A stretch of 42,540 nucleotides of DNA from Methanobacteriota archaeon (GCA_018650165.1 JABIGM010000057.1:1-42540); one strand, 5' to 3'; counted from the stretch's first letter, positions 19,997-42,499 are shown. The notes: generated by a model not told the origin, from the sequence alone. Made by a program: numbers and translations.

Positions 19997-21025
19997 ATGG
20001 GCCCCCTCCACTGTATCGTCAATCCAGCCAGCAGAGACCATACTTGTGGTAAGAGGTGGCCGAATATAGTTGCAAAATTAGAGTCAAGAGGTTTTGAGAT
20101 TAATTCTTACATTACCGAGGGTGTTGGACACGCCAGCGAACTTGCTTGGAAATTACGAAATGACAATGTTGAGGGTTTGATTGTTGCAGTCGGTGGCGAC
20201 GGAACCGTTCACGAGGTTGCTAGTGCTTTACGCGGGGGAGATATTCCAATGGGGATTTTACCATTTGGTTCTGGTAATGATTATGCTATAACCCAAGGAA
20301 TTTCTCGAAAGAATCTCGATTTGGCGATTGATGTATTGGCCAATGGAGTGGACCGTAGGTGCGCAGCATGGCGCTTGGAAGGGTTTCCTGCAACTAATGC
20401 TGGAGATTACCCCTCTCCTAAACCCAATGAATGGGACGGTGAAGCTAAGGATAAAGGAAGAGTCGTCAGGTGGGTATTTCTTGAATCCGATGCAGGGATT
20501 ACCAGTGCAATATCACGAGCAAAACTGTATCGTGCAAAATGGATTAAAGGTGGGAAAAAATACACTTACCTTGGAATCACAACAATTCCCTTTTGGCAGC
20601 GTCGAAAAGTTTGGCTCAAATTGGATGATGCCGAAGGACAAATTCTTGATTTTACTATGTTTGCTGCAACAACCGGGGAAACATTTGGTGGCGGATACCA
20701 GGTTTGCCCGGGTGTAACTCCTGTTGATGAAAGTGGGACAATTGTATATGCGCCACGCCTTTCAAGAATTGCAATGTTATCATTGATGGGGCCAATGAAG
20801 AAAGGAAAACACATCGGAAAGTGGGGGATCACTCAACAAAAAGCCAATCGTATAGAAATTAAGCCAGTAGATAAGGATGGTAATATCAGTGAATCACCAT
20901 TGGACCTATCAACATGGGTCCAAGCAGATGGAGAGCCGGTTATTGTAAGCCCTGCAACGCTGGAATGGCACACAGAACAATTACTCGTTAGAGGAGCAGT
21001 AGATGTTCCTTGGGCTTCAGAATGA
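19997..21025 (+). CDS. Diacylglycerol/lipid kinase family protein (YegS/DAGK-like)
   Basis: IVNPAS, VGGDGTVHEV, LPFGSGNDYA, FGGG, QADGEP. Confidence 0.9.
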   Translation: MGPLHCIVNPASRDHTCGKRWPNIVAKLESRGFEINSYITEGVGHASELAWKLRNDNVEGLIVAVGGDGTVHEVASALRGGDIPMGILPFGSGNDYAITQGISRKNLDLAIDVLANGVDRRCAAWRLEGFPATNAGDYPSPKPNEWDGEAKDKGRVVRWVFLESDAGITSAISRAKLYRAKWIKGGKKYTYLGITTIPFWQRRKVWLKLDDAEGQILDFTMFAATTGETFGGGYQVCPGVTPVDESGTIVYAPRLSRIAMLSLMGPMKKGKHIGKWGITQQKANRIEIKPVDKDGNISESPLDLSTWVQADGEPVIVSPATLEWHTEQLLVRGAVDVPWASE

Positions 21026-22378
21026 GAAATCACTGAAATCATCATCGTTAGCAATTGATGCTGATTTGTTTTGAGATACAGGGGCAGGTTCCGTTTCGAC
21101 TTCAGGTTCAGATTTCACAGCCCTCTTCTTAACAGAACGACGCTTTACCGGTTTATTTGCAGGAGCAGAGGCCGGTTTGGAAGTTTGAGTTCCTCTAGCA
21201 GAAGTTGAGAAATGGCTGCGACTTTGAGATGGTTCGGGCTGTGTTGAAACAACATTTCCAGAGGGCATAGGTCCTTTTTGCACCGGTTGGCTGCTGACCA
21301 CCGGTTGCGATTGCATTTGTTTGGCCCCACTTGCCACCACTACTGAGCCGCCACCGAATGTCTTTGGTGCCTCATCCTTATCCCCGGATGCCAAAACACT
21401 GTCTAGGCTGAAACCAGAGATCGCAATTTCATCTTCAGATTTCTTTTTTGGAGGTGGACTGCTCTTACGCTCTTTTGCAGCACGTTCTGTCGAACTTTCC
21501 AACCCTTCTTTCTTAGAAGATTTCAAGTCCTTCTTCATTTGAATAACCTTTGCCAATCCTTCTCTGCCAAGTAATGTCTCAGCAGTAGCTTTTGCTCCTT
21601 GACGAATAATCATTGTAGAGAGTATGAATAGTCCTACTCCGCCGCCTCCGGCAACAACTAGGAAGAACATTACGAATGACCATCTACCAAAAAAATCAGT
21701 ATCTCCAAGGTAGTATTCGTCATCATTTTCACCATCTAAACTTACAATTCCTTCAGCGGTTTTAATATTCGTGATGACCATTCCATGGCCCTGTCCTACA
21801 ACTACACAATTTTCATCAATTTCAGTTGTGCCAGCATCCATAATATATCCACTTAATTCGATAGGTTGGTGCCAATGCTCCAAAACATTGAGCCCATCAG
21901 CAATATTTTCTGAGCCAGGCACGATTCCGATAACAGCCCAATCATCTTCATTTGTTGATATTTTTGACCCAACAGCTTCGACAGGCATTGTAGGAGAATC
22001 CCAGTTTTTTAGATTAACTCTAGCAGCGGAGCCTTCTTCGATCGCTTCGGCATCACTCCATTTCATTTTGTCAATTATTACTGCGGCACCCATTGCAGAC
22101 TCAACATCATTGAGAGCCGGGTGTTCACTATACACTCTCGAAGTGATTAGCATTCCTGTGACTTTAATTTTTGAATTTTCAACTCCACACCCAATCAGTG
22201 AAACTTCCTCGTCATAGCCATCACCTAATTTTGATTGGATATGTGCTTTATCATCATCAATTTCAACTTGGAGTTGACCGTCCTCGCCCCCCCATTCTGG
22301 CGTAGAGGCATAGATACAACCTGCCATGAACATGAGTAGGACCAGCAGCATCGCTAGTGGTGCTCGTGTGCGGGCCAT
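21017..22378 (-). CDS. Putative lipoprotein with an additional TM helix and low-complexity cytoplasmic tail
   Basis: MARTRAPLAMLLVLLMFMAGC lipobox-like signal; internal TM WSFVMFFLVVAGGGGVGLFIL; K/S/P-rich tail ending DDDFSDFSF. Confidence 0.7.
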   Translation of the reverse strand: MARTRAPLAMLLVLLMFMAGCIYASTPEWGGEDGQLQVEIDDDKAHIQSKLGDGYDEEVSLIGCGVENSKIKVTGMLITSRVYSEHPALNDVESAMGAAVIIDKMKWSDAEAIEEGSAARVNLKNWDSPTMPVEAVGSKISTNEDDWAVIGIVPGSENIADGLNVLEHWHQPIELSGYIMDAGTTEIDENCVVVGQGHGMVITNIKTAEGIVSLDGENDDEYYLGDTDFFGRWSFVMFFLVVAGGGGVGLFILSTMIIRQGAKATAETLLGREGLAKVIQMKKDLKSSKKEGLESSTERAAKERKSSPPPKKKSEDEIAISGFSLDSVLASGDKDEAPKTFGGGSVVVASGAKQMQSQPVVSSQPVQKGPMPSGNVVSTQPEPSQSRSHFSTSARGTQTSKPASAPANKPVKRRSVKKRAVKSEPEVETEPAPVSQNKSASIANDDDFSDFSF

Positions 22379-22448
22379 GAGGTGCCTACGGCACCTTGAG
22401 TTGTTGAACCCTTTCCTACGATTCACCTATCGGTAAGATAAATTGAAG

Positions 22449-22531
22449 CGCGGAGAGAGAGATTCGAACTCCCGTGTCCGAGGGACAGTGGATTTCAAGT
22501 CCACCGCGATACCAGGCTATGCGATCTCCGC
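22449..22531 (-). tRNA. tRNA-Ser(TGA)
   Basis: Acceptor GCGGAGA/TCTCCGC, discriminator G, anticodon arm GTGGA-CTTGAAA-TCCAC, long variable arm TGTCC-CTC-GGACA, GTTCGAAT; 83 nt. Confidence 0.96.
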
Positions 22532-22574: not shown

Positions 22575-24320
22575 CTATTCCTCTCTGCTAATGGCAATAA
22601 TCGCTAGACTAAGGCTTGTAGCAACGGTTGCAAAGGCGAATCCCGGTAAGCCAGAACCTTCGTCCTTTGGATCATTAACCGAGTTCGCAGCTCTTTCAAT
22701 ATCTTCGACAAAATCATTTACATCCCAATCATATCCAATGAATACGACCAATGGCTCCCAGTCATCATTAAGAATAAACGTCTGAGTAGAGTGAGAGGTA
22801 GTTGTTTCATTTTCTTGTTCGTCATGCTCCATTACTGGCGACATTAGAGTAGTAGAATCTTCACCATCTGCAATCCATGCATAGTGGTTAGCATCTTCCA
22901 TCAAAATACTATCAGATGCAGAATCTGATGTCGACATCCAATGGCTATAATCGCCCATGTCGTGCCAAATGTAGAGGTTATATTCTGCTTCAATTCCATT
23001 GATTGAAGTGACTGTACCGTTTTCCATTTCATGCGAGATATCATTTTGATTTAGCGCGGTCATTGTATGCTCCATAGCACTAACTTCGCCCATCCCAGAA
23101 TAAGTTCCATTGAATATTGCGGTATTTCCACCGGGATAGATTACTCCCAATTTGTGAGTCATCTCTCCAGACATAGACATCTGTGGGGGCGGAATCATGG
23201 AATCCATTGTCGAATTTGGAGCCCAAGCAATATGCTCCTGTTCATGCAGATTATCCATACTAGATTCACTGTTCGCCCAAGATTCATTGTTCACGTCCCA
23301 GTAATGCAATTGCCACCACCATGACGAATCATTTGGTTCGCTAACACCAGCAATAGTAGACATATTATGGCCAGATTCAGAATTTGGGGCATCAAATGAT
23401 TCTAGGGCAGCTAAGGACATATGCCATGCGTTGATGTGAGTAAGAGTTGAAGACACATTAGTTCCATCTTCTTGAATAATTACAAAGGATTCATTTTCCA
23501 TATCAGGCATTGGAATAAGTGAATCATCGGATATGTTTGGAGCGAATGCCAGATTACCGGCATCTACGGAATCGATTCCACTAAGACTTTCTTCCCACAT
23601 GTGACTAGACATATTCCATGTATGTAATTGCCACCACCATGAATTGTCAGATGGGGTCTCATCTCCATTAATTCCTGTAATATAGTGCCCCCATTCACTT
23701 TCGGTCGAATTAATCGTCCAATTATTTTCAAATTCTGCTGCAACTAGTTGGTCCCACCCAGTAGGCATAACGGGGTAGACACTCTGACTTCCGTCAGGCA
23801 TTATTACAGAAACAGAAGATTCGACTTCGTTGTATTCCATGCTATGATTCTCCATCTCTTCATGGTCATGTGACTGAACTTCTTCAGTTACAACAGAAAT
23901 TTGGAAATCAGCCCAGACCTGTTCAAGGTCTACTAATTCGCCAGTTAGGTGGGGCCACGTTGCTCCAAAATTATCCATGTATGTTTTGAAAACTTCTGGT
24001 GAATCAGTAGCGGGGTCAACAGTAATTGAAATGAATTGGTAATCAATATCATCTAATTGTTTTTCAGCTTGAACGAGATTGTTAGTAATCGCTGGGCAAA
24101 CATCGACACAGGTCGTAAAAACAAAAGCGACTACAGTGACATCAGCATTCCCTTTTTGCATCGAATATGGGTTACCATCCTGGTCGATAAGTACTCTATT
24201 CGGAATCGGATCTCGGTCTAGGTCATAGCCATTCCAATGAACGCCATCTCCACTAGCACTGCTTGAAGGGATGGTCGAGGCACAAAGTAGAGTGACTATG
24301 GCTACAGCGAAAAAGCGCAT
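22575..24320 (-). CDS. SCO1/SenC copper chaperone with three inserted DUF4430-like repeats and a PGF-CTERM anchor
   Basis: Signal peptide; FVFTTCVDVCP (CxxxC), ISITVDPATD, WPHLTG; C-terminal half of the Sco fold (SHSTQTFILN) resumes at aa 509; LPGF + TM + REE. Confidence 0.88.
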   Translation of the reverse strand: MRFFAVAIVTLLCASTIPSSSASGDGVHWNGYDLDRDPIPNRVLIDQDGNPYSMQKGNADVTVVAFVFTTCVDVCPAITNNLVQAEKQLDDIDYQFISITVDPATDSPEVFKTYMDNFGATWPHLTGELVDLEQVWADFQISVVTEEVQSHDHEEMENHSMEYNEVESSVSVIMPDGSQSVYPVMPTGWDQLVAAEFENNWTINSTESEWGHYITGINGDETPSDNSWWWQLHTWNMSSHMWEESLSGIDSVDAGNLAFAPNISDDSLIPMPDMENESFVIIQEDGTNVSSTLTHINAWHMSLAALESFDAPNSESGHNMSTIAGVSEPNDSSWWWQLHYWDVNNESWANSESSMDNLHEQEHIAWAPNSTMDSMIPPPQMSMSGEMTHKLGVIYPGGNTAIFNGTYSGMGEVSAMEHTMTALNQNDISHEMENGTVTSINGIEAEYNLYIWHDMGDYSHWMSTSDSASDSILMEDANHYAWIADGEDSTTLMSPVMEHDEQENETTTSHSTQTFILNDDWEPLVVFIGYDWDVNDFVEDIERAANSVNDPKDEGSGLPGFAFATVATSLSLAIIAISREE

Positions 24321-24370
24321 AAATAACGCTCTAAGGGGTTGTTTATCAAACCTATTCCGAATATGTTTGA

Positions 24371-24775
24371 TTATTCAGTTACGTAAGAATAATCCCAATT
24401 TGGAGTGCACCAAGACGGTAGCCCATCGATTCCATCGGGGTTAGAAAGTCCAATTCCCCAAATCATCAATACAACAAACAGAACTGGGAACAGTGCAGTT
24501 CTTGTGTAAATGAAAGGGTCACCCTTCAGATGCATAAAAAATGCTGCAATACCGTACCCTTTGATAATTCCAACAATAATTAAAACTGCCCAAACAGCAC
24601 CTCTTGTGATTACTATGTCAGTACCTGGTATTGTGTCAAAGAACACTGCTGCGACTTCGAATAGTGTAAAGAACATCAGTATTAGGAAGTTCACATAGTA
24701 AACATCCTTGCCGATCATATCAGCCATTTTCTGGAAGAGTCCTGCAATTAGCCCTGTATATTTTTCCTCACTCAT
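24371..24775 (-). CDS. coxD: Cytochrome c oxidase subunit IV (prokaryotic)
   Basis: Three TM helices, FTLFEV, KGYGIAAFFMHLK; follows subunit III. Confidence 0.85.
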   Translation of the reverse strand: MSEEKYTGLIAGLFQKMADMIGKDVYYVNFLILMFFTLFEVAAVFFDTIPGTDIVITRGAVWAVLIIVGIIKGYGIAAFFMHLKGDPFIYTRTALFPVLFVVLMIWGIGLSNPDGIDGLPSWCTPNWDYSYVTE

Positions 24776-24784
24776 ATTATCGCC

Positions 24785-26149
24785 TCAGTACAGATAGAAT
24801 GCTGGGAAGATGGCCACCCAAGCCAAATCCACGAAGTGCCAATACAAACCGAAGTATTCGATTCCACGACCATTATTTTCATCATAGCCCACAGTATCAG
24901 CCTTGAATACCATGAATAGCATAACTAGTAGCCCAATGAATACGTGGAGCCCGTGAGCACCAGTTGCCACATAGAAGATAGAACCGGCTTGACTATCAAT
25001 GGTAAATCCTTCAGCGATTAGATGGCTCCATTCAACCAATTTCAAGACTATGAACAGTGAACCTAGTGCAATAGTAATCAGTAGGTAATTGCGAACAGCT
25101 TTCTTTCTTGAAGGGAATAGTTTTGCTAACAGAGCATTCTTCGAAGGCTCCCAATTTACATTCTTAGCAGTCTTAAGGGCAAGCACGATTGTGTATGAAG
25201 ATATAATCAGAGCAAAAGTATTGATTGCTCCGGGTAGTAAAGTCATAATGTCACCACGAAGTAAATCCGAAGCAGTAGTTGTGTCTACATCACTACACTT
25301 TCCAGCATCTACTGCCCATTGAGTACACCATCCTGTTCTCATTCTTAGGTAAGATGAGAAGAAGGATGCGAAGACCATCATCTCAGAGATAAGGAAAATC
25401 CACATTCCGGCTTTACGAATATCTTGGCCTTCAAATGGATGCGATGTGGCTACTTGTTCAGGGTGTCCTTTCAGATCCTCATTCCACCAGTTACCAATTC
25501 CCATTATCAAAAGAATTGTACCAAATCCAGATAATGCAAATCCAGACAAATCAGCATCATAATCCAAACCTAACCATGCTTTGCAGGTCGTAACAAATCC
25601 AGGGAATCCCATCATGAAGAATAAAATTCCACCAGCCATCATAATCGGTGAGGCTGAACCATGATGTTCTTCGTGGTCATCACCATGGTGTTCTTCTTCA
25701 TCAGGCTTGATACTATTGAAGAATCCAGCAACGCCATAAAATGCAGCGTAAACGATGAACATTACCATAATTGTCTTTCCTGCAGTACTCCAAGTTAGGT
25801 ATGATAGATGCGCATCTACTTGATGATGATGCGCATCATCAGCGACTTGAGTTGCTTCGTCTGATGCAGCTTTAGATTCTAGGTACTCCTCATACAAGGC
25901 ACCCTCTTCTTGGCTACCATTATTTTCCCAGCGACTTTCTGCGAATTTGAATTCTTCTAGTGCCAAATCAGCAGCATTCTTTGCAGCCTCGTATTCCTCA
26001 TTCGCATCATCCCAATCTTGATGCATCATCGAGCCTATTCCTCCGGCCATTACACCGTATGCAAGGACACCAACAACTAGTAGGCCAACTGCAATTACAA
26101 CAGTTCTCATCCAGATGCTATTCTTAACATCGTGCAAGCTTCCGCTCAT
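24785..26149 (-). CDS. coxC: Cytochrome c oxidase subunit III with N-terminal extension
   Basis: GMWIFLISE, NTFALIISS, TGAHGLHV, YWHFVDLAW; canonical start (HHGSASP...WWNED) only at about aa 162. Confidence 0.93.
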   Translation of the reverse strand: MSGSLHDVKNSIWMRTVVIAVGLLVVGVLAYGVMAGGIGSMMHQDWDDANEEYEAAKNAADLALEEFKFAESRWENNGSQEEGALYEEYLESKAASDEATQVADDAHHHQVDAHLSYLTWSTAGKTIMVMFIVYAAFYGVAGFFNSIKPDEEEHHGDDHEEHHGSASPIMMAGGILFFMMGFPGFVTTCKAWLGLDYDADLSGFALSGFGTILLIMGIGNWWNEDLKGHPEQVATSHPFEGQDIRKAGMWIFLISEMMVFASFFSSYLRMRTGWCTQWAVDAGKCSDVDTTTASDLLRGDIMTLLPGAINTFALIISSYTIVLALKTAKNVNWEPSKNALLAKLFPSRKKAVRNYLLITIALGSLFIVLKLVEWSHLIAEGFTIDSQAGSIFYVATGAHGLHVFIGLLVMLFMVFKADTVGYDENNGRGIEYFGLYWHFVDLAWVAIFPAFYLY

Positions 26150-28440
26150 GATTTCTCCTCCTTATTCCAAAGATTGCTCATCGTCCTAAACGGAGAACGC
26201 AACATTGATTCTAATTTCGACTCGTGATGAGGAGCGCCTTCGTTAGCATCTTTCTGAATTGGATTAACTGCGAACGATGGAGTCGGAGGAGGGGACGTGA
26301 CTGCCCATTCTAATGACCAACCGCCCCATGGGTCTTTTCCGACCTTTTCGCCCTTCTTTACTGAACGGATAATGTTCCAAACCAATATGAGTTGAGAGAT
26401 TCCGAATATGATTGCAAATATTGAAATCGCCATGTTCAATTCAGCAAACCCTGAATCCGCAGCATAGGTATGGGTTCTTCTTGGCATGCCCATAATTCCA
26501 ACTGCGTGCATTGGCCAGAAGGCCGCATTGTAAGAACAGAATGCAATCAAGAAGTGCCAAAGACCTAGGGTTTCATTCATCTTACGCCCTGTTACCTTCG
26601 GGAACCAATAGTAAATTCCTGAGAATAGTGCAAAGATAATTCCTCCAATGAATACATAGTGGAAGTGGGCAACTACGAAGTATCCGTCGTGGAATTGTGT
26701 GTCAAGTCCAGCAACAGGGAAGAACATCCCCGATAGTCCTCCTAGTGTAAATGTGATCAAGAACCCTAGTGACCAAAGTGTGTGTGTCTTGAATACCAAA
26801 CTTCCACCCCATAAAGTAGCAAGCCAGTTGAAGATCTTAACTCCGGTTGGAATCGCTACAGCCATTGTGGTAATCATGAATGCAGAACGCCATGCTGGAC
26901 TCATACCACTTGTTAGCATATGGTGCCCCCATACAATGAAACCTACTACTCCGATACCGACCATGGCATAAACCATCGAACGATATCCAAAGATAGAACG
27001 CCTTGCACTAGTGGCAAGAACTTCTGATACAATTCCGAATGCGGGAACCACAACCACGTATACCTCAGGGTGTCCGAAGAACCAGAACAAGTGCTGGAAC
27101 AAGAGAGGGTCTCCGCCTGATGTGAAGAAGGTTGTACCGATTGTAGAATCGAATAATAGGAAGAATACTCCTATGACGAATGCAGGCAGGCTAACGTATA
27201 GCATGAATACACTGATTAGAACAGACCAAGTAAATAGTGGCATTCTCATCCATCCAACACCCTTTGCTCTCATGGTAAAAGTCGTGGTAACGAAATTTAC
27301 ACCAGATAACGTAGAGGATGCTCCCAGTAAGGCAATTCCGGATATGAACGAAATCGTCCCGGCATTCGGACCATAGTCAGTACCTAGTCCTGCAAGACTG
27401 GAATATGGCGGATACATAACCCAAGTAATGTCAGCCCCTTCTCCACTCCAAACTCCAGCAAAGATAAGTGGTGCTGCTGCAACAATTATCCAGAAACCTA
27501 ACGCATTGATTCTAGGGAATGCTAGATCCTTTGCGCCTATTTGTAGAGGTAGAATATAGTTCATAAAACCAGCAATCATTGGCATTGCTGCTAAGAAAAT
27601 CATCGTAGTGCCATGTAAAGTAAAGAACGAATTGTATTCTGATTGTGATAAGAAATCGTTCTCTGGTAGTGCTAATTGTATACGGAATAGCAGTGCTAGT
27701 AATCCTCCAACTAAGAAGAAGAAGAACCCGTAAAGGAAGTATAGAATACCAACCATCTTGTGGTCGGTAGTAGTTAGCCATGGTTTGAGATAAGCCCAGA
27801 AGTTTCCTATGGAGAAATTCTCAGGGTTGCGTGTGTAGAACACCCACATACTTCCAACTAAGATTAGACCAAGGGCTAGCCCGATTACAGTCATCAAAAT
27901 AGTCAGAGCGGCAGCACTTGGAGCGGTAGGGTTCGCATTAACTCCGGATACGGTGATTTCTTCACGGTTCCAATCATCAGCATCTGACGCATCGCCATCT
28001 CCATTTACAGCATTACCATAAACGACGAAGTTTGCTACAGCTGTGTCGTCAGCGGGGGCAGTCCATTTGAATGACCAACTTCTTTGACCATTGATTTCAT
28101 TATTATGAGTTAGTCCACCATCCATTTCGGATGCGCCATCAAGCGATTCAAGAGTTCCGACTCCATCTTCAACGAATATTCTGAATCCACCATTTTGGTC
28201 AGGATTATCAATAGGAACCTTTTCATTAGAAATTGTTAATGTGAAAAGGAATTCTTCTGAAGCATTGAATACTTCAGGAAGCCCATCGATAGTAATTACA
28301 GTATCATCGGTCATACCTCCGTGGCACAGGCAGCCGGAAGGTTCTACATTGCCAATTCCATTCTGTCTTGCTTCAAAAGATGACGTGGATGCTAAAGCAA
28401 CCAATAGTAGGGCGAGAATCGCAACGGTTCGTCCTTTCAT
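26146..28440 (-). CDS. coxA: Heme-copper oxidase subunit I, type A1, with N-terminal extracytoplasmic domain
   Basis: TLHGTTM, KDLAFPRIN (D channel), GHPEVY, WGHHM, PTGVKIF (K channel), VAHFHYV; about 220 extra N-terminal residues. Confidence 0.97.
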   Translation of the reverse strand: MKGRTVAILALLLVALASTSSFEARQNGIGNVEPSGCLCHGGMTDDTVITIDGLPEVFNASEEFLFTLTISNEKVPIDNPDQNGGFRIFVEDGVGTLESLDGASEMDGGLTHNNEINGQRSWSFKWTAPADDTAVANFVVYGNAVNGDGDASDADDWNREEITVSGVNANPTAPSAAALTILMTVIGLALGLILVGSMWVFYTRNPENFSIGNFWAYLKPWLTTTDHKMVGILYFLYGFFFFLVGGLLALLFRIQLALPENDFLSQSEYNSFFTLHGTTMIFLAAMPMIAGFMNYILPLQIGAKDLAFPRINALGFWIIVAAAPLIFAGVWSGEGADITWVMYPPYSSLAGLGTDYGPNAGTISFISGIALLGASSTLSGVNFVTTTFTMRAKGVGWMRMPLFTWSVLISVFMLYVSLPAFVIGVFFLLFDSTIGTTFFTSGGDPLLFQHLFWFFGHPEVYVVVVPAFGIVSEVLATSARRSIFGYRSMVYAMVGIGVVGFIVWGHHMLTSGMSPAWRSAFMITTMAVAIPTGVKIFNWLATLWGGSLVFKTHTLWSLGFLITFTLGGLSGMFFPVAGLDTQFHDGYFVVAHFHYVFIGGIIFALFSGIYYWFPKVTGRKMNETLGLWHFLIAFCSYNAAFWPMHAVGIMGMPRRTHTYAADSGFAELNMAISIFAIIFGISQLILVWNIIRSVKKGEKVGKDPWGGWSLEWAVTSPPPTPSFAVNPIQKDANEGAPHHESKLESMLRSPFRTMSNLWNKEEKS

Positions 28441-29450
28441 ACTAATTCCCCTCCATGGTCAAAGTAGACGCCGAAGTCAGCATCGCAAGTCATACCCTCT
28501 CTAGCAACAACTTCGACTTGTCCATTCATGACAGAGTGTTGTTGGCCACAGTATTCTGCACATCGGATTGGGAATACACCTGCATCATTTGGCTGAACAT
28601 ACATCCAAGTTCCACCTTCTAGTCCCGGGACAGCATCTTCCTTCATGCCCCATTCTTGGAGCCAGAAAGCGTGTTGAACGCCTTGGTATACATTTGATTC
28701 ATTGAACTCGGAATCTCTTATCGGATTGTTACTATGTATGTTGAACATTACATTGATGTCGCACGGGATGATTAGATCTCCGCTCAACTTGTGCTCAACT
28801 GGAATGTGCTGCCAGCGATGTAATACATTCCCTTCTGCATCCAAAATATCCACGGATTGGAATATGAATTCGTTGAACAAAACATCCATTGTTGAATTAT
28901 TGGCCAAGTCCAGATTTTCGGAATTTAAACCGTAGGTTACCGCAGCGGTAGTTGCGCCGGACCCAGCATCAATAGAAAGGCCAGTAAAGGCATCCCAGGT
29001 TACGTTATGACCGGTATCCATGTCCTCCCATGTCAAAGCATCTTGGTAATAGAAATCCCAGTACCATTGTAATCCATTTACTTCAACAGTGAAGGTATCT
29101 TCTTCATATTCTGGATCCAACATGTTCTGTACATCTCCCCAAACAATATTCATTGAACCGAAAGCGAGTATTGTAACCCAAATCACTAGAATGGTTGGTC
29201 CAGCGAACCAAACGAGTTCGAGGTTGAAATCATGGCGTTCTTTCGGGAAAGTACCAACCACCAACCGTTCCTCGTCACTTGTGACCATCTTGTCGATTTT
29301 TGGGTCGACGCCTTCACGGTAACGCAGGATTGCAATTAGCAACCATGCAAACGTGAAGAGACCGACTAATATCGACCAAAACATAAATTTGTCATACAGT
29401 ATATTGAACACCGTATATTCGTCTGGCCACAACTCACGGTCAGCGCCCAT
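28437..29450 (-). CDS. coxB: Cytochrome c oxidase subunit II (CuA)
   Basis: Two TM helices with LELVW, QWYW, QHAFW, CAEYCGQQHSVM; ATGA overlap with subunit I. Confidence 0.95.
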   Translation of the reverse strand: MGADRELWPDEYTVFNILYDKFMFWSILVGLFTFAWLLIAILRYREGVDPKIDKMVTSDEERLVVGTFPKERHDFNLELVWFAGPTILVIWVTILAFGSMNIVWGDVQNMLDPEYEEDTFTVEVNGLQWYWDFYYQDALTWEDMDTGHNVTWDAFTGLSIDAGSGATTAAVTYGLNSENLDLANNSTMDVLFNEFIFQSVDILDAEGNVLHRWQHIPVEHKLSGDLIIPCDINVMFNIHSNNPIRDSEFNESNVYQGVQHAFWLQEWGMKEDAVPGLEGGTWMYVQPNDAGVFPIRCAEYCGQQHSVMNGQVEVVAREGMTCDADFGVYFDHGGELV

Positions 29451-36523: not shown

Positions 36524-36706
36524 ATGCCTAGGCGCAAATATGGTAAATTGCGCAAGACGGTCGAACTTCCTCCTAAATCTAATTGTTCTCGATGTAGAAG
36601 CGGAAAGTACTGTCCAATCGAAGGTCATGAAGGTTACACGACTGCTAGCCACAGAGAATGGAGCGGGCCCCCTAAAACTGAGAAACGCAAAAAAGTGCGT
36701 TCATGA
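36524..36706 (+). CDS. Small basic protein with putative CCCH zinc site
   Basis: 60 aa; C-x2-C-x5-C-x4-H; 17 K/R; TTGTAA 29 nt upstream of ATG 36524. Confidence 0.6.
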   Translation: MPRRKYGKLRKTVELPPKSNCSRCRSGKYCPIEGHEGYTTASHREWSGPPKTEKRKKVRS

Positions 36707-37720
36707 GTCTTCAGTATCGATTTCAATCGTCTGAGCACGTTTGTAAATCTCTCTCAAAGTCTGGTCACTAATTTCCAGATACACACGTGTCGTTGCTATA
36801 CTTGCATGTCCTAGTAATCTCTGAATGCTAACAAGATCAGCACCCCGCTCAAGTAAACCAGTAGCAAAGTTATGGCGAAGAACGTGAGGTGTAAGGCGGC
36901 CGCGTGGAATTCCAGCATCATCTGCCAACCTATCCATTAGCCGCTGAACAGTTCTAGACTGTAGTGCGCCACCAGTCTTTGTGACTAACAAATGGTCGCC
37001 ATGCGGGTTTCGTGCATCGCGCAGTGGTAACCAAGCAAGAATTCGAGCAACAGTTGATTGTGTAAATAGAACTAACCGGTCCTTCCCGCCTTTTCCATCT
37101 ATGACCATTGCCGAATGGTCGGCAAGGTCGATGTCTGAAAGTGCGAGGTCACATAATTCGCTCACACGTAAACCGGTATCCAGGATCATTGTGACTACAA
37201 GATTTGCCACCGGGTCCTCGCTGCATGCCGCTGCCTCTTTTACCATAGTCAACTCCCTACTGGTCAAAGTCCTGGGCAATTTTTTACCACTCTTAGGCCG
37301 AGTTAGATGTTCAGGCCATTTTTGCCCTAGCCAATTCATGAGATGGTTAGCTGCGGCCAGCCTCGCCTTCACGGTCGAAGGCGAACGGTCGATGAGAGAG
37401 TGAACCCAAAGGTCGAGTCTTCCATTGAACGGTTCAATTCTATCCAGTAACTGCGCAATACTCATCGAGTCTCTTTCAAATTCACTGATGATGTTTTCAC
37501 CAGGTAGAGGCGTTTCAATCAAATGACGCAATCCAATCATATACGATTTTTGAGTATTCATTGATTTTCCTTCGGCCTGCATTTGTGTTGTGTAAGATGT
37601 GAGCCAAGAAAGATGTCCGCGATGAACAAGACGCGGCGGTAGCACTGGGCCCTCTGCGTACAGACGTTGCTGTACAGCCTTTTGCTTCGCCTTGTATGGC
37701 TCTGTTCTCATTGGCGTCAC
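36701..37720 (-). CDS. xerA: Site-specific tyrosine recombinase XerA
   Basis: TGLRVSEL (R), GKGGKDR (K), TPHVLRH (HxxR), LGHASIATTRVY (H, Y); start GTG 37720 or ATG 37711; housekeeping context. Confidence 0.85.
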   Translation of the reverse strand: MTPMRTEPYKAKQKAVQQRLYAEGPVLPPRLVHRGHLSWLTSYTTQMQAEGKSMNTQKSYMIGLRHLIETPLPGENIISEFERDSMSIAQLLDRIEPFNGRLDLWVHSLIDRSPSTVKARLAAANHLMNWLGQKWPEHLTRPKSGKKLPRTLTSRELTMVKEAAACSEDPVANLVVTMILDTGLRVSELCDLALSDIDLADHSAMVIDGKGGKDRLVLFTQSTVARILAWLPLRDARNPHGDHLLVTKTGGALQSRTVQRLMDRLADDAGIPRGRLTPHVLRHNFATGLLERGADLVSIQRLLGHASIATTRVYLEISDQTLREIYKRAQTIEIDTEDS

Positions 37721-40348: not shown

Positions 40349-40396
40349 TACATCTATCCCCATCCTTGAAAGAGGGTGAAGGGTCCGTCATTAGTG

Positions 40397-42499
40397 ATGA
40401 GTGCGCAGACATCTGATGACATGTCCTCTCTCACAGTGGCCGAATTAAAGGCACTGTGTAAAGAAAATGGACTTTCAATGTCGGGCCGTAAAGCCGATTT
40501 AATCACCAGATTAGATGAACATATCAACGAAGAATCCATTTCACTAGAAGAAGTAGAAACCGTGCCACTGCCCTCATCTAAAAAAGAAGCAGAAACGGTC
40601 CCTTTGCCCGAATCTCAAGATGATGAAGTATTAGTTGCTGAATTCATTGATGCTGAAATAATCGAGGAAGAAATTGAACCAACGCCGGCATCTGCCAAGG
40701 GTAGTTCCAATTCTGTAACATTGATGGATCAAATAAAAAATCCTAAAATTGCGGCTGTTTTGATTACGATTCTCTTAGCATCAGGTGGCTGGTATTGGTA
40801 TGTTAATTCACAGTTACAACCCTTTACGGCTGATGATTTGAGGTACGGAGATTCAATGGAATATATCATCTTGAATGGCGATTTAGATGCCGATGGCGAA
40901 TATGTAGAATTGTTACGAGATAATTTCGAGACAGACCAATTGAATAATTCATGTCGTCTTCAATTAACATTTTCTGGAATGGGTACGACATCGGTTACTA
41001 ATGGCAATTCAAATGAATTAGCCTTCGAGCCCGATAGTTCTTTATTGGGCGCAGTACAAGCTAAAGGCGCATATGGTCTTGATTGGTTAGCAGTTGAAAA
41101 GGTACAGACTCGTAACTTCGACTCATTCCAATTATCACGTTACAATCCTAAACCACTGCAACCAGATGAATGCATGAGTCAATCCACGGGGGGTGTTGGC
41201 GGGACTCTAGAGTTTGATACAAAAACGTGGACTGAAATTTCCGAGCGTGATATAATTTCAACTCAAGCAGATTGGAAACTGAATCTAGATGGAGATTATA
41301 GTCAAGGTACCACAATGTCATATGGTTTAGGAGGCGTATTAGGGCTGTTAGAAGAAATTGCTCCAGGTGTGGCCATTGTTATTTCTCCTGTAGAAATCCG
41401 TGAAATGATGGGTTCACAATTAATCGATACCGGTACTAATGGAACACATTTGGGTTGGGAATGGAATGTAGTTGGCCCCGACGAAGTCGGCGATGAAGAA
41501 ATGTGGAAGGTTTCAATGGAAAACCGTCAAATCAGAGACAATTGTTTCGGACATGCAAGAATTACAATGTGGGTAATCGAAGACTCACCTTGGGCTGTAA
41601 AGCAAAACGTGGATGTTCAAATTTCAGGTGATGAAGGTGACAAATCTTCTTGCGGCACAATTAGTAAAGAATTTGCCGACCTAGTTCTCCCTGAAGGAAG
41701 TATTAGTCTTGCATTAGAGATGTCGAAAAACACCCTTACTCGTGGTGAGAAGTTGTTAGATATGGGTCGTAGTTATTCTTCAACTCCAAACGCTGGAGCT
41801 TATGTTCCAACGACGGAAGAATTGGTAGACTGGGGGGATTATGACATTCATTTGCCAGATAATAGCAGTCTTCGTTCTGAAACATTGGAAGACGCAATCG
41901 GTTGTCTAAGTTCAGGATTTGTCTCTGAAGCCGTAGCTGCTAATTCTGCATTAAACGATGACGGATACATATGGAGGGCGAGAGACGACCGCAACAGTGA
42001 GCCCGACGCCACTCGCTGGAATCTATCGTGGATCAGCACAGACCCTAATTCGGGCTGGGTTGTTATCGATGTGTCAGGGGCTCCAAGTTCAAATAATTGC
42101 GAATACATTGCACATGGAGGCCACGATGATAGCGTATCCCATAGTCGAAACGACATACCTTCAGCCCTGAACATAAGCATGCTTGAATCAGATTTAGTAG
42201 ATGCAATGCGATTCCCATCCCTGAATGGAGATAATGGATTCTTTACATCACAGGGCCAATACCATCCTGAAACAAGACTTGGCGTATTGGTGGTCACACC
42301 AGATAGTGAATATACAGATTGGTTAAATCGACTTAATTCAGGAGACACGGGTGCTACAACATTAGACCTGACGCGTTCTTGGACATCTTCAACTATAGTT
42401 GATGGCATAACCACACAATGGGACAATTCACTATCGTTAGCGATGGATGCCACTACAGGTCAAGTTATTGGTTGGAATCATATCCAAACGCCAATCTGA
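40397..42499 (+). CDS. SAP-domain single-pass membrane protein with large external domain
   Basis: LTVAELKALCKENGLSMSGRKADLITRL (SAP), acidic linker, TM IAAVLITILLASGGWYWYV, about 570-aa C-terminal region with several Cys. Confidence 0.85.
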   Translation: MSAQTSDDMSSLTVAELKALCKENGLSMSGRKADLITRLDEHINEESISLEEVETVPLPSSKKEAETVPLPESQDDEVLVAEFIDAEIIEEEIEPTPASAKGSSNSVTLMDQIKNPKIAAVLITILLASGGWYWYVNSQLQPFTADDLRYGDSMEYIILNGDLDADGEYVELLRDNFETDQLNNSCRLQLTFSGMGTTSVTNGNSNELAFEPDSSLLGAVQAKGAYGLDWLAVEKVQTRNFDSFQLSRYNPKPLQPDECMSQSTGGVGGTLEFDTKTWTEISERDIISTQADWKLNLDGDYSQGTTMSYGLGGVLGLLEEIAPGVAIVISPVEIREMMGSQLIDTGTNGTHLGWEWNVVGPDEVGDEEMWKVSMENRQIRDNCFGHARITMWVIEDSPWAVKQNVDVQISGDEGDKSSCGTISKEFADLVLPEGSISLALEMSKNTLTRGEKLLDMGRSYSSTPNAGAYVPTTEELVDWGDYDIHLPDNSSLRSETLEDAIGCLSSGFVSEAVAANSALNDDGYIWRARDDRNSEPDATRWNLSWISTDPNSGWVVIDVSGAPSSNNCEYIAHGGHDDSVSHSRNDIPSALNISMLESDLVDAMRFPSLNGDNGFFTSQGQYHPETRLGVLVVTPDSEYTDWLNRLNSGDTGATTLDLTRSWTSSTIVDGITTQWDNSLSLAMDATTGQVIGWNHIQTPI

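What the first reader, a model, noticed from the sequence alone, without database searches (positions are those of the whole stretch)
22575..29450. Candidate new system: an A1 oxidase whose external face is rebuilt, possibly for a non-cytochrome-c electron donor
Seen: catalytic, proton-channel and CuA residues are canonical, yet subunits I, II, III and Sco each carry a large extra external module. No CxxCH cytochrome c, heme A synthase (CtaA) or heme O synthase (CtaB) gene is in the locus. Known: CuA oxidases need an external one-electron donor, cytochrome c in bacteria or halocyanin/sulfocyanin in some archaea. Inference: the added modules together form a built-in electron-entry or metal-loading platform.
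Basis: partly seen in the sequence, partly recalled or inferred. Interest (0 to 1): 0.78.

Follow-up and report, generated by a model that had tools for sequence, protein, structure and literature searches.

The report
Archaeal oxidase with built-in cytochrome-f-like domain
This is the ordinary oxygen-reducing respiratory enzyme of an abundant ocean archaeon (Marine Group II), but its core subunit carries an outward-facing domain with a Cys-x-Cys-His site that folds like cytochrome f and is probably the enzyme's built-in electron inlet, which could explain how these cells respire without any recognisable cytochrome c.

Summary
Window 22575-29450 (minus strand) is a coxB-coxA-coxC-coxD-sco operon of a Poseidoniaceae (Marine Group IIa) archaeon. 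Catalytic, channel and CuA residues are canonical A1-type, and subunits I, II, III and Sco each carry extra external sequence.

The four additions are not one co-evolved platform:
- The CoxA N-terminal domain occurs class-wide.
- The CoxB insert and the CoxC extension occur only in this family.
- The Sco tail occurs in this family and a few other genera.

Only the CoxA module looks redox-related. It belongs to NCBIfam NF041895 (choice-of-anchor V, Reeler-like) and has an invariant C-x-C-H. Relatives carry CxxCH, Cx3CH or Cx4CH at the same place. Its best structural matches are cytochrome f. A paralogue heads the Rieske/cytochrome b operon, where cytochrome c1 or f would sit.

The genome has an intact archaeal Ccm system but no canonical cytochrome c. 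CtaA/CtaB, a Rieske/cyt b complex and a halocyanin-like protein are encoded elsewhere.

Best reading (about 0.55): the domain is a built-in, probably haem-c-type, electron entry analogous to caa3 oxidases. This scan had already noted the fusion in other genomes. I found no paper describing it.

The parts
28437..29450 (-). coxB, subunit II (337 aa): two TM helices plus a CuA cupredoxin domain
   Evidence: PF00116 and TIGR02866. CuA ligands H260, C297, E299, C301, H305 and M308, and W129, are invariant in 45 orthologues. VIA-align matches to CyoA/CoxB have Z 12.5-10.
28776..29045 (-). CoxB inserted all-beta subdomain (residues about 136-225) between cupredoxin strands 1 and 2, with a conserved H211-x-W213-x-H215
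   Evidence: AF2 pLDDT is 88-95 across residues 130-240, with eight extra strands. Cupredoxin matches align only about 90-110 of residues 118-320; residues 144-216 match only generic small beta proteins. The insert is present in 15/15 genomes of family f1 and was not found in f3, f4 or G171, whose CoxB ORFs are 224-265 aa.
26146..28440 (-). coxA, subunit I (764 aa): A1-type haem-copper oxidase core (residues about 216-740) behind an N-terminal fusion
   Evidence: PF00115 E=2e-142. PDB sequence match to 6adq_F at E=7e-143 over residues 219-730. Motifs located.
27946..28368 (-). Choice-of-anchor V (Reeler-like) beta-sandwich ectodomain of CoxA, residues about 25-165, preceded by a Sec-type signal peptide
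   Evidence: NF041895 scores 72 bits against a cut-off of 42. AF2 mean pLDDT is 89.8. Top VIA-align matches are cytochrome f, Z 9.4 and 9.2. Reeler domain matches appear.
28321..28332 (-). C37-L-C39-H40 codons: the invariant C-Xn-CH site of the family
   Evidence: C37, C39 and H40 are invariant in 86 sequences. n = 1 in 80, 2 in 2 and 4 in 3 of 85 sequences.
27844..27912 (-). Extra transmembrane helix TM0 (residues 177-199). It returns the chain to the cytoplasmic side before canonical TM1
   Evidence: Hydropathy peak of 2.62 at residues 177-195. The canonical COX1 match starts at about residue 216-230.
24785..26149 (-). coxC, subunit III (454 aa)
   Evidence: PF00510, NF050119 and TIGR02842 match residues about 245-453.
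25655..26149 (-). CoxC N-terminal extension (residues 1-165): a TM helix, an acidic helical stretch of about 80-90 residues (predicted external), a second TM helix and a His/acid-rich linker (EEEHHGDDHEEHHG)
   Evidence: Translation and hydropathy. Present only in family f1; f2 and f3 orthologues match from about residue 155 onwards. Topology is inferred.
24371..24775 (-). coxD, small subunit IV (134 aa, 3-4 TM helices)
   Evidence: PF03626 E=5e-10.
22575..24320 (-). sco, copper chaperone (581 aa): signal peptide and a thioredoxin-fold Sco domain with C71-VDV-C75
   Evidence: PF02630 E=1e-21 at residues 44-160. Motif positions.
22656..23825 (-). Sco C-terminal module (residues about 166-555): three repeats of about 105 residues (SWWWQLH...AWAPN). 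Very acidic, rich in Trp, Met and His
   Evidence: Translation and composition. Only a weak DUF4430 hit, E=0.1. Relatives are almost all Poseidoniaceae Sco proteins, plus two ZnuA-domain proteins. Distribution.
22578..22655 (-). PGF-CTERM-type archaeosortase sorting signal at the Sco C-terminus (…GLPGFAFATVATSLSLAIIAISREE)
   Evidence: Read from the translation; PGF at residue 559 and a hydrophobic tail at 560-578. No HMM hit was obtained for this protein itself, so this rests on the motif.

Best explanation
The locus is the housekeeping A1-type aa3 haem-copper oxidase operon (coxBACD-sco) of a Poseidoniaceae archaeon.

Its only functionally suggestive novelty is the N-terminus of subunit I:
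- a Sec signal peptide;
- a 140-residue beta-sandwich of the choice-of-anchor V / Reeler-like family, carrying C37-x-C39-H40 about 13 residues from the predicted mature N-terminus;
- an 11-residue linker;
- an extra TM helix that anchors the domain on the outer face.

I propose that this domain binds a redox cofactor, most likely haem attached through the two cysteines by the genome's archaeal CcmABCEF system. His40 would be one axial ligand. The other would be His112 or the N-terminal amino group, as in cytochrome f.

On this reading the domain is the oxidase's built-in electron acceptor and passes electrons to CuA, as the fused cytochrome c domain does in caa3 oxidases. Its sister copy is membrane-anchored at the C-terminus and is the first gene of the Rieske/cyt b operon. 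That copy would play the cytochrome c1/f role. Electrons would pass between the two copies directly or through the anchored halocyanin-like protein.

Shown: the anatomy, the conservation, the fold similarity, the gene contexts, and the presence of Ccm without canonical cytochrome c.

Inferred: cofactor identity, electron transfer and proximity to CuA.

The CoxB insert, the CoxC extension and the Sco tail are later, lineage-specific, non-redox decorations. The Sco tail is a stalk with a PGF-CTERM anchor and possibly helps capture metal.
For: Family and fold:
- NF041895 scores 72 bits.
- C37, C39 and H40 are invariant and T111-H112 nearly so.
- The spacing between the cysteines varies while His always follows the second Cys. 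In 85 sequences n = 1 in 80, n = 2 in 2 and n = 4 in 3.
- Variants at the same position: CGSCH in a Poseidoniales paralogue, which also gives the only (weak) Cytochrome_CBB3 HMM hit in 61 genomes; CGGGYCH in this genome's C35 paralogue; CVNSCH and CASCH in other Thermoplasmatota.
- Of 48,161 PDB chains the two best structural matches are cytochrome f (2jxm_B: Z 9.4, 136 residues, 3.4 A; 4ogq_C: Z 9.2). They are among the few listed matches whose range reaches back to model residue 25, before the CxCH motif; most start at residue 41 or later.
- The predicted signal-peptidase site lies at a fixed distance from the motif. Position -4 from the invariant Gly is A, S or G in 83 of 85 sequences.

Gene context:
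- A paralogue with a C-terminal TM anchor is the first gene of the chV-p151-Rieske-cyt b operon, here and in family f3.
- In G146 a free chV gene lies directly beside an unfused second coxA.
- P0056 fuses chV to a plastocyanin domain.
- P0147, a CxxCH member, lies next to a ccmB-ccmA-ccmE-ccmC-ccmF cluster.

Maturation system:
- Ccm looks intact here: CcmF with WGGYWAWD, CcmC, a fused ABC/membrane protein, and CcmE ending in CPSKY.
- Ccm is conserved in the order: CcmE in 54/61 genomes, and PF01578 in all 25 order genomes plus the one other class genome sampled.
- No class I cytochrome c was found in 61 genomes, and no credible CxxCH cytochrome in this genome.
- All 46 or so genomes of the phylum sample with strong chV hits also have PF01578.

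Fusion distribution:
- Full-length fused CoxA occurs in about 57 of 61 order genomes across all three families, and also in G146 and G171. Other Thermoplasmatota CoxA proteins match only residues 215-740.

Literature:
- MGII has cytochrome b and Rieske proteins but no canonical bc1 (PMC6336850).
- CcmABCEF with a CxxxY CcmE suffices for maturation in archaea (PMC9084895).
Against: - C-x-C-H is not an established haem-c attachment motif. From my own knowledge, not checked here, the E. coli Ccm system does not mature CXCH variants.
- There is no sequence-level link to cytochrome f. Pfam relates family members to the non-redox Reeler domain instead (26 of 86 members).
- The cytochrome f Z scores are within 1 of cohesin and Ig-like folds, so they count as ties.
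- The same domain heads large adhesin-like surface proteins (C18, C35) and occurs in non-respiratory contexts.
- One single-contig genome, G246, has two motif-bearing relatives but no detectable CcmC/F or CcmE.
- A halocyanin-like protein is present and could reduce CuA directly.
- The distance from the domain to CuA could not be measured.
Confidence: 0.55

Rival explanations
1. The chV domain is an electron relay, but its cofactor is not covalent haem. The Cys-x-Cys-His site, with His112, would bind copper or another metal loaded outside the cell. Alternatively the two cysteines would form a redox-active disulfide.
For: Cys, Cys, His and a nearly invariant second His (H112) make a plausible metal ligand set. 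The proteins use Sec-type signal peptides, which is compatible with metal loading outside the cell. G246 has motif-bearing relatives but no Ccm. CXCH is not a known haem-c motif. A Sco chaperone is encoded in the same operon.
Against: A metal site using both cysteines would not be expected to tolerate Cys-Cys spacings of 1, 2, 3 and 4 residues. An intact, order-wide Ccm system would have no obvious substrate. One family member lies beside a ccm cluster. The structural match to cytochrome f includes the motif-bearing N-terminal segment.
Confidence: 0.15
2. The chV domain is a non-redox, Reeler-like surface module. It might act as a structural cap, an envelope or S-layer contact, or an assembly aid. 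Poseidoniales attach it to many exported proteins, the oxidase and the Rieske/cyt b complex among them. On this view electrons reach CuA directly from halocyanin.
For: Every genome of the order has 2-10 copies on very different proteins. In this genome the domain also heads repeat-rich surface proteins of 683 and 810 aa. Sequence-level kinship is to the Reeler domain. Other contexts are unrelated to respiration. A halocyanin-like protein is present, and halocyanin is highly transcribed in MGII (PMC9723583).
Against: This view does not explain the invariant C-Xn-CH site, the fixed mature N-terminus, or the operon position where cytochrome c1/f sits. It does not explain the fusion to a plastocyanin domain. 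It also leaves a conserved Ccm system without a canonical substrate.
Confidence: 0.25
3. One reading: the four extra modules (I, II, III and Sco) evolved together. They would form a single electron-entry or metal-loading platform for a new kind of donor.
For: All four modules are present together in every genome of family f1 that was sampled. The CoxB insert is well folded and sits in the CuA domain, with a conserved H-x-W-x-H. The Sco tail is rich in Met, His and Trp and also occurs on ZnuA-type metal-binding proteins.
Against: The modules were acquired at different depths of the tree: class, family, and family plus two genera. The oxidase therefore works with the CoxA domain alone in f3, f4 and G171. 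The CoxB, CoxC and Sco additions have no redox motif. Ordinary donor candidates are encoded elsewhere in the genome.
Confidence: 0.07

Closest known systems
caa3-type cytochrome c oxidase (e.g. Thermus thermophilus, PDB 2YEV; Bacillus)
   Same: An A-type oxidase with an electron-carrier domain built into a core subunit on the outer face. The CoxA and CoxB cores match 2yev chains.
   Different: In caa3 a class I cytochrome c domain with CxxCH is fused to the C-terminus of subunit II. Here a beta-sandwich with CxCH is fused to the N-terminus of subunit I through an extra TM helix. The cofactor is unproven.
Cytochrome f (PetA) of the cytochrome b6f complex (PDB 2JXM, 4OGQ, 1CTM)
   Same: It is the best structural match (Z 9.4 and 9.2). 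Both have a beta-sandwich with a C-Xn-CH segment close to the mature N-terminus, followed by a single TM helix. The sister copy sits in a Rieske/cyt b operon.
   Different: The motif is CxCH rather than CxxCH. The fold search gave no alignment or coordinates, so whether cytochrome f's small inserted domain has a counterpart was not examined. No Pfam or sequence-level similarity was found. Z scores tie with generic Ig-like folds. Homology is not shown.
NCBIfam NF041895, choice-of-anchor V domain (with NF041894, the MXAN_6652 family), and the Pfam Reeler domain PF02014
   Same: The CoxA N-domain is a member by HMM score (72 bits). Of 86 relatives, 26 also hit Reeler. The F-spondin reeler domain is a structural match.
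   Different: The family has no assigned function. Fusion to a respiratory oxidase, and a role as a complex III subunit, are not part of its description.
Archaeal terminal oxidases served by blue copper proteins (halocyanin in haloarchaea, sulfocyanin in Sulfolobales), and Sulfolobus CbsA cytochrome b558/566 as a cytochrome c1 substitute (my own knowledge)
   Same: These are archaeal respiratory chains without cytochrome c1/c. An anchored cupredoxin or an unusual external haem protein bridges the Rieske/cyt b complex and the oxidase. A halocyanin-like gene is present here.
   Different: In those systems the carrier is not fused to subunit I, and the fold and motif differ.

Membership tests
A1-type haem-copper oxygen reductase (aa3 cytochrome c oxidase) | Subunit I with six His ligands, helix VI GHPEVY (Glu and the cross-linked Tyr), D-channel Asp/Asn and K-channel Lys | tested here: met
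   Motifs located at residues 275, 291, 304, 456, 504, 532 and 591. Aligned to 6adq_F at E=7e-143.
A1-type haem-copper oxygen reductase (aa3 cytochrome c oxidase) | Subunit II with a binuclear CuA site (H, C, E, C, H, M) and the electron-entry Trp | tested here: met
   H260, C297, E299, C301, H305, M308 and W129 are invariant in 45 orthologues.
A1-type haem-copper oxygen reductase (aa3 cytochrome c oxidase) | Haem O and haem A synthases present in the genome | tested here: met
   CtaB (TIGR01473, 239.7 bits) and CtaA (PF02628, 140.5 bits) are adjacent on contig C28.
caa3-type oxidase | Class I cytochrome c domain (CxxCH) fused to the C-terminus of subunit II | tested here: not met
   CoxB ends after the CuA domain. 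No CxxCH lies in the locus. The fused domain is on subunit I and is a beta-sandwich.
NF041895 choice-of-anchor V domain | HMM score above the curated cut-off | tested here: met
   72 bits against a cut-off of 42, residues 12-161.
Reeler domain (PF02014) | Pfam HMM match | tested here: inconclusive
   The window's own domain gives no hit. Of 86 family members, 26 hit, best E=2e-5. A family profile hits Spondin-1 at E=0.02. VIA-align Z is 7.7.
Cytochrome f (PetA) | Beta-sandwich large domain whose N-terminal segment carries the haem-binding Cys-Cys-His | tested here: inconclusive
   Top structural matches are Z 9.4 and 9.2 and span model residues 25-170. The Z scores tie with other folds. Residue-level equivalence of the motif could not be read out. 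The motif is CxCH, not CxxCH.
Cytochrome f (PetA) | Sequence membership (Pfam apocytochrome f models) | tested here: not met
   No such hit for the domain or for any of 86 relatives at E up to 10.
c-type cytochrome (covalent haem) | C-Xn-C-H attachment motif on an exported polypeptide | tested here: inconclusive
   The motif is invariant but n=1 is not canonical. n=2, 3 and 4 occur in relatives. The signal peptide is judged by eye and by the -3/-1 rule.
c-type cytochrome (covalent haem) | A cytochrome c maturation system in the same genome | tested here: met
   CcmF, CcmC, an ABC protein, CcmE (CPSKY) and a thioredoxin-CcdA-like protein are present.
c-type cytochrome (covalent haem) | Haem actually bound through thioether links | not testable with these tools
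   Needs haem staining, a pyridine haemochrome spectrum or mass spectrometry.
Sco1/SenC copper chaperone | Thioredoxin fold with CxxxC and a distal His | tested here: met
   PF02630 E=1e-21. C71-VDV-C75 is present. Candidate His151 or His153 identified by eye only.

The most novel reading that the evidence does not exclude
The choice-of-anchor V / Reeler-like family would be an unrecognised class of c-type cytochromes. Haem would be attached at a C-x-C-H site (n usually 1) next to the mature N-terminus of a cytochrome-f-like beta-sandwich. In Marine Group II/III archaea one copy would replace cytochrome c1/f in the Rieske/cyt b complex. Another copy, fused to CoxA, would replace soluble cytochrome c. 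The family might be evolutionary kin of cytochrome f, which currently has no known relatives.
Probability: 0.35. Interest if true: 0.88.

Novelty: new variant of a known kind. Interest (0 to 1): 0.7.

Why it matters
Marine Group II archaea are among the most abundant heterotrophs of the surface ocean. No member has been cultured. Genome surveys report that they have a cytochrome b, a Rieske protein and a 'cytochrome c' oxidase, but no cytochrome c1 and no canonical complex III (PMC6336850). How electrons get from quinol to oxygen is therefore an open gap.

A conserved exported domain that sits both in the Rieske/cyt b operon and on the oxidase is a concrete candidate for the missing carrier. 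These genomes keep a complete haem-attachment system and have no ordinary cytochrome c, which fits that role.

If the domain binds haem through CxCH, three things would follow:
- The rules used to find c-type cytochromes in genomes would need extending.
- Cytochrome f would gain its first relatives.
- A function would be proposed for a family of at least 678 cluster representatives that currently has none.

Expression and haem staining can test this directly.

Tried and rejected
- Pfam on the isolated CoxA N-domain, the CoxB insert, the CoxC extension and the Sco tail at E up to 10 gave only a weak DUF4430 hit (E=0.1) for Sco and chance hits for CoxC.
- The search for related loci with alignment A1 failed, because no stretch was conserved enough.
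- The Pfam Rieske model found nothing in the genome. The protein upstream of cytochrome b nevertheless has a Tat signal and the CTHLCC...CICH boxes, so that negative was discounted.
- All 11 CxxCH ORFs in the genome were inspected. They are thioredoxin-type CxxC proteins (C12, C49), a TSP3-repeat surface protein (C51), or spurious frames. None is a credible cytochrome c.
- An Atlas search with the Sco tail returned only unnamed Thermoplasmatota clusters.
- Literature searches for 'choice-of-anchor V', CXCH + heme, Poseidoniales + ccmF, and reeler domain + heme found nothing relevant.
- A self-BLAST of Sco did not report the three repeats. They are described from reading the sequence.
- Cluster names gave little taxonomy for the CxxCH and Cx4CH variants.
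- I considered and rejected the 469-aa ORF at 21017-22426 as part of the operon. A tRNA-Ser gene separates it from sco.
- Whether the CoxA domain sits near CuA could not be tested. Only single-chain prediction is offered and no coordinates are returned.
Full report
**What is there.** Window 22575-29450 holds five co-directional, abutting or overlapping ORFs on the minus strand. Pfam and NCBIfam identify them as CoxB (337 aa), CoxA (764 aa), CoxC (454 aa), CoxD (134 aa) and Sco (581 aa). A tRNA-Ser(UGA) gene at 22448-22531 follows sco and closes the unit. Source names of near-identical proteins place the DNA in Candidatus Poseidoniales / Poseidoniaceae, that is Marine Group IIa. The assembly is 1.75 Mb in 66 contigs and is estimated 80% complete.

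**The enzyme core is canonical.**
- CoxA has the haem a and a3 and CuB histidines, GHPEVY (A1-type Glu and Tyr), the D-channel Asp/Asn and the K-channel Lys.
- CoxA aligns to solved A-type oxidases at E=7e-143 over residues 219-730.
- CoxB keeps W129 and all CuA ligands, which are invariant in 45 orthologues.
- No CxxCH cytochrome, CtaA or CtaB lies in the window. CtaA and CtaB are adjacent on contig C28.

**The four additions.**

CoxA residues 1-215:
- A Sec-type signal peptide, a domain scoring 72 bits on NF041895 (choice-of-anchor V; cut-off 42), an 11-residue linker and an extra TM helix at 177-199.
- The extra helix puts the domain outside and returns the chain to the cytoplasmic side for canonical TM1.

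CoxB residues about 136-225:
- A confidently predicted all-beta subdomain (pLDDT 88-95) inserted in the cupredoxin domain.
- It has a conserved H211-x-W213-x-H215 and no informative fold relative.

CoxC residues 1-165:
- A TM helix, an acidic helical stretch of about 80-90 residues that is predicted to be external, a second TM helix and a His/acid-rich linker.

Sco residues about 166-581:
- Three Trp/Met/His-rich acidic repeats of about 105 residues, with only a weak DUF4430 resemblance (E=0.1).
- It ends in a PGF-CTERM-type sorting signal.
- The same tail occurs on two ZnuA-domain proteins. It looks like a stalk or anchor, possibly a metal-gathering appendage of exported metal-handling proteins.

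**Do the additions co-occur?** Only within one family.
- The CoxA fusion covers the full query in about 57 of 61 sampled genomes of the order, across all three families. It is also found in a genome of the sister order (G146) and in one other Thermoplasmatota lineage (G171). All other CoxA proteins of the phylum match only residues 215-740.
- The CoxB insert is present in 15/15 genomes of family f1. It was not found in f3, f4 or G171, whose CoxB ORFs are 224-265 aa.
- CoxC residues 1-150 are f1-only. Residues 155-454 are order-wide.
- The Sco tail is in all of f1 and in two f3 genera. Other f3 Sco proteins are about 245 aa.
- The additions were therefore acquired stepwise. They are not sporadic, but they are not a co-evolved set either.

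**What the CoxA domain is.**
- A full-library search finds 678 cluster representatives at E<=0.001. Most are proteins of about 200 aa with a signal peptide, the domain and a C-terminal anchor (TM helix or PGF-CTERM-like).
- G28, C37, C39, H40, G85 and W122 are invariant. T111-H112 is nearly so.
- The Cys-Cys spacing varies while His always follows the second Cys. In 85 sequences n = 1 in 80, n = 2 in 2 and n = 4 in 3.
- Variants at the homologous position: CGSCH in a Poseidoniales paralogue, which also gives the only (sub-threshold) Cytochrome_CBB3 hit in 61 genomes; CGGGYCH in this genome's C35 paralogue; CVNSCH and CASCH in other Thermoplasmatota. This is the behaviour of haem-c attachment sites, where n = 2-4 is known, more than of a metal site.
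- The AF2 model is confident overall (pLDDT 89.8) but weaker around the motif.
- Aligned to 48,161 PDB representatives, its two best matches are cytochrome f (Z 9.4, 136 residues, 3.4 A; and Z 9.2). They are among the few listed matches whose range extends back to residue 25, before the motif. Cohesin and Ig-like folds are within one Z unit, so this is suggestive and not proof. Foldseek also lists cytochrome f and the F-spondin reeler domain.
- At sequence level the kinship is to the Reeler domain: 26 of 86 members by Pfam, and a family profile against Spondin-1 at E=0.02. No kinship to apocytochrome f models was found.
- A new detail: the predicted signal-peptidase site sits at a fixed distance from the motif. 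Position -4 from the invariant Gly is A, S or G in 83 of 85 sequences, and the first Cys lies 9-10 residues after that Gly in 68 of 85. Many mature N-termini begin with an aromatic residue followed by Pro; the complex III copy begins YPDGIG. This recalls cytochrome f, whose N-terminal amino group ligates the haem (established knowledge). It remains only a parallel.

**Context linking the domain to electron transfer.**
- This genome has six copies.
- One copy (262 aa, with a C-terminal TM anchor) is the first gene of an operon. It is followed by a 151-aa membrane protein, a Tat-exported Rieske protein (CTHLCC...CICH), cytochrome b and a 936-aa protein. That order is conserved in family f3. This is the position a cytochrome c1 or f gene would occupy.
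- In G146 a free chV gene lies directly beside an unfused second coxA, which is a split form of the fusion.
- One relative fuses chV to CARDB repeats and a plastocyanin domain.
- One CxxCH member lies next to a ccmB-ccmA-ccmE-ccmC-ccmF cluster and a multihaem cytochrome gene.

**The maturation argument.**
- The genome encodes CcmF (WGGYWAWD), CcmC, a fused ABC/membrane protein, and CcmE ending in CPSKY, the archaeal CxxxY form. It also encodes a thioredoxin-CcdA-like protein.
- CcmABCEF is sufficient for maturation in archaea (PMC9084895).
- In the order, CcmE is found in 54/61 genomes. PF01578 is found in all 25 order genomes and the one other class genome of the phylum sample.
- No class I cytochrome c passes threshold in 61 genomes.
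- None of this genome's 11 CxxCH ORFs is a credible cytochrome.
- In a 151-genome sample of the phylum, all 46 or so genomes with strong chV hits also have PF01578, against 86 of 151 overall. Relatedness and aerobic lifestyle confound this comparison.
- One counter-example: G246, a single 3.6-Mb contig, has two motif-bearing relatives but no detectable CcmC/F or CcmE.

**Donors.**
- A 163-aa plastocyanin/halocyanin-like protein with a signal peptide, a C-x2-H-x4-M copper site and a C-terminal anchor is encoded on C38.
- Halocyanin is among the most transcribed MGII genes (PMC9723583).
The chain may run from the Rieske protein to chV(III), then through halocyanin if it is needed, to chV(CoxA) and finally to CuA.

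**Verdict.**
The subunit I module is a good candidate for a built-in electron entry. By its motif, fold and the Ccm evidence it points to a cytochrome-like carrier, not a non-cytochrome one.
- The CoxB, CoxC and Sco additions are younger, family-specific decorations with no sign of redox function.
- Weighing against this: the domain also heads adhesin-like surface proteins and occurs in unrelated contexts. CXCH is not an established haem motif. A purely structural role therefore keeps about a quarter of the probability.

**Earlier notes of this scan.** Notes on other genomes (e1-5120877, e1-3789932, e1-1162242, e1-4890636) describe the same CoxI fusion and the Rieske-operon paralogue. I reached the same reading before seeing them, and they are not independent evidence.

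Added here:
- cytochrome f as the best structural match;
- the fixed mature N-terminus;
- the CxxCH, Cx3CH and Cx4CH variants;
- the Ccm-without-cytochrome-c tallies;
- the neighbour of a ccm cluster;
- the stepwise history of the four modules.

I found no published description in the searched library.

Noticed in passing
window 22448-22531 (-): A tRNA-Ser(UGA) gene lies immediately downstream of sco. It separates the oxidase operon from the next ORF.
   Followed up: yes
window 21017-22426 (-): A 469-aa ORF with no Pfam or NCBIfam match. It has a lipoprotein-like N-terminus, one TM helix and a long Lys/Ser/Pro-rich tail.
   Followed up: partly
L016:5203-8013 (G000 contig C16): The last gene of the Rieske/cyt b operon encodes a 936-aa protein. 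It has a membrane part after cytochrome b, a large middle region, a 4Fe-4S dicluster domain and CCG (HdrD-like) domains. This is an unusual partner for a Rieske/cyt b complex.
   Followed up: no
L016:3456-4316 (G000 contig C16): The Rieske protein has a Tat signal and the CTHLCC...CICH boxes, yet the Pfam Rieske model (PF00355) does not detect it in the whole-genome search. Surveys based on this HMM could miscount Rieske proteins in this group.
   Followed up: partly
P0344, P0345 (metagenome proteins): The Trp-rich repeat of the Sco tail also occurs on two large ZnuA-domain (PF01297) proteins. It may be a general appendage of exported metal-binding proteins in this lineage.
   Followed up: no
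L064:3051-3644 (Logan SRR30888634 contig): A 197-aa choice-of-anchor V protein with a canonical CTPCH motif lies next to ccmB, ccmA, ccmE, ccmC and ccmF genes and a multihaem cytochrome gene.
   Followed up: partly
L055, L059 (G246, single 3.6-Mb contig): Two choice-of-anchor-V-like proteins carry CVNSCH and CICH motifs. The genome has no detectable CcmC/F or CcmE. This is a possible counter-example to haem-c attachment.
   Followed up: partly
L011:2993-4702 (G000 contig C12): A 569-aa fusion of a thioredoxin-like domain (CANC) with a CcdA/DsbD-like membrane part. It probably belongs to the thiol-reduction branch of cytochrome c maturation.
   Followed up: partly
L063:5506-6459 (G000 contig C1): Another choice-of-anchor V paralogue (317 aa, CTCH) with several C-terminal TM helices. 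It lies between pntAB (transhydrogenase) and tatC.
   Followed up: partly
window 36701-37720 (-) and 40376-42499 (+): A phage-integrase-family gene and a 707-aa SAP-domain protein lie near the window's end.
   Followed up: no
window 28437-29450 (-), CoxB residues 230 and 322: Two invariant cysteines lie outside the CuA site (IIPC and MTCD). They may form an external disulfide that braces the enlarged CuA domain.
   Followed up: no
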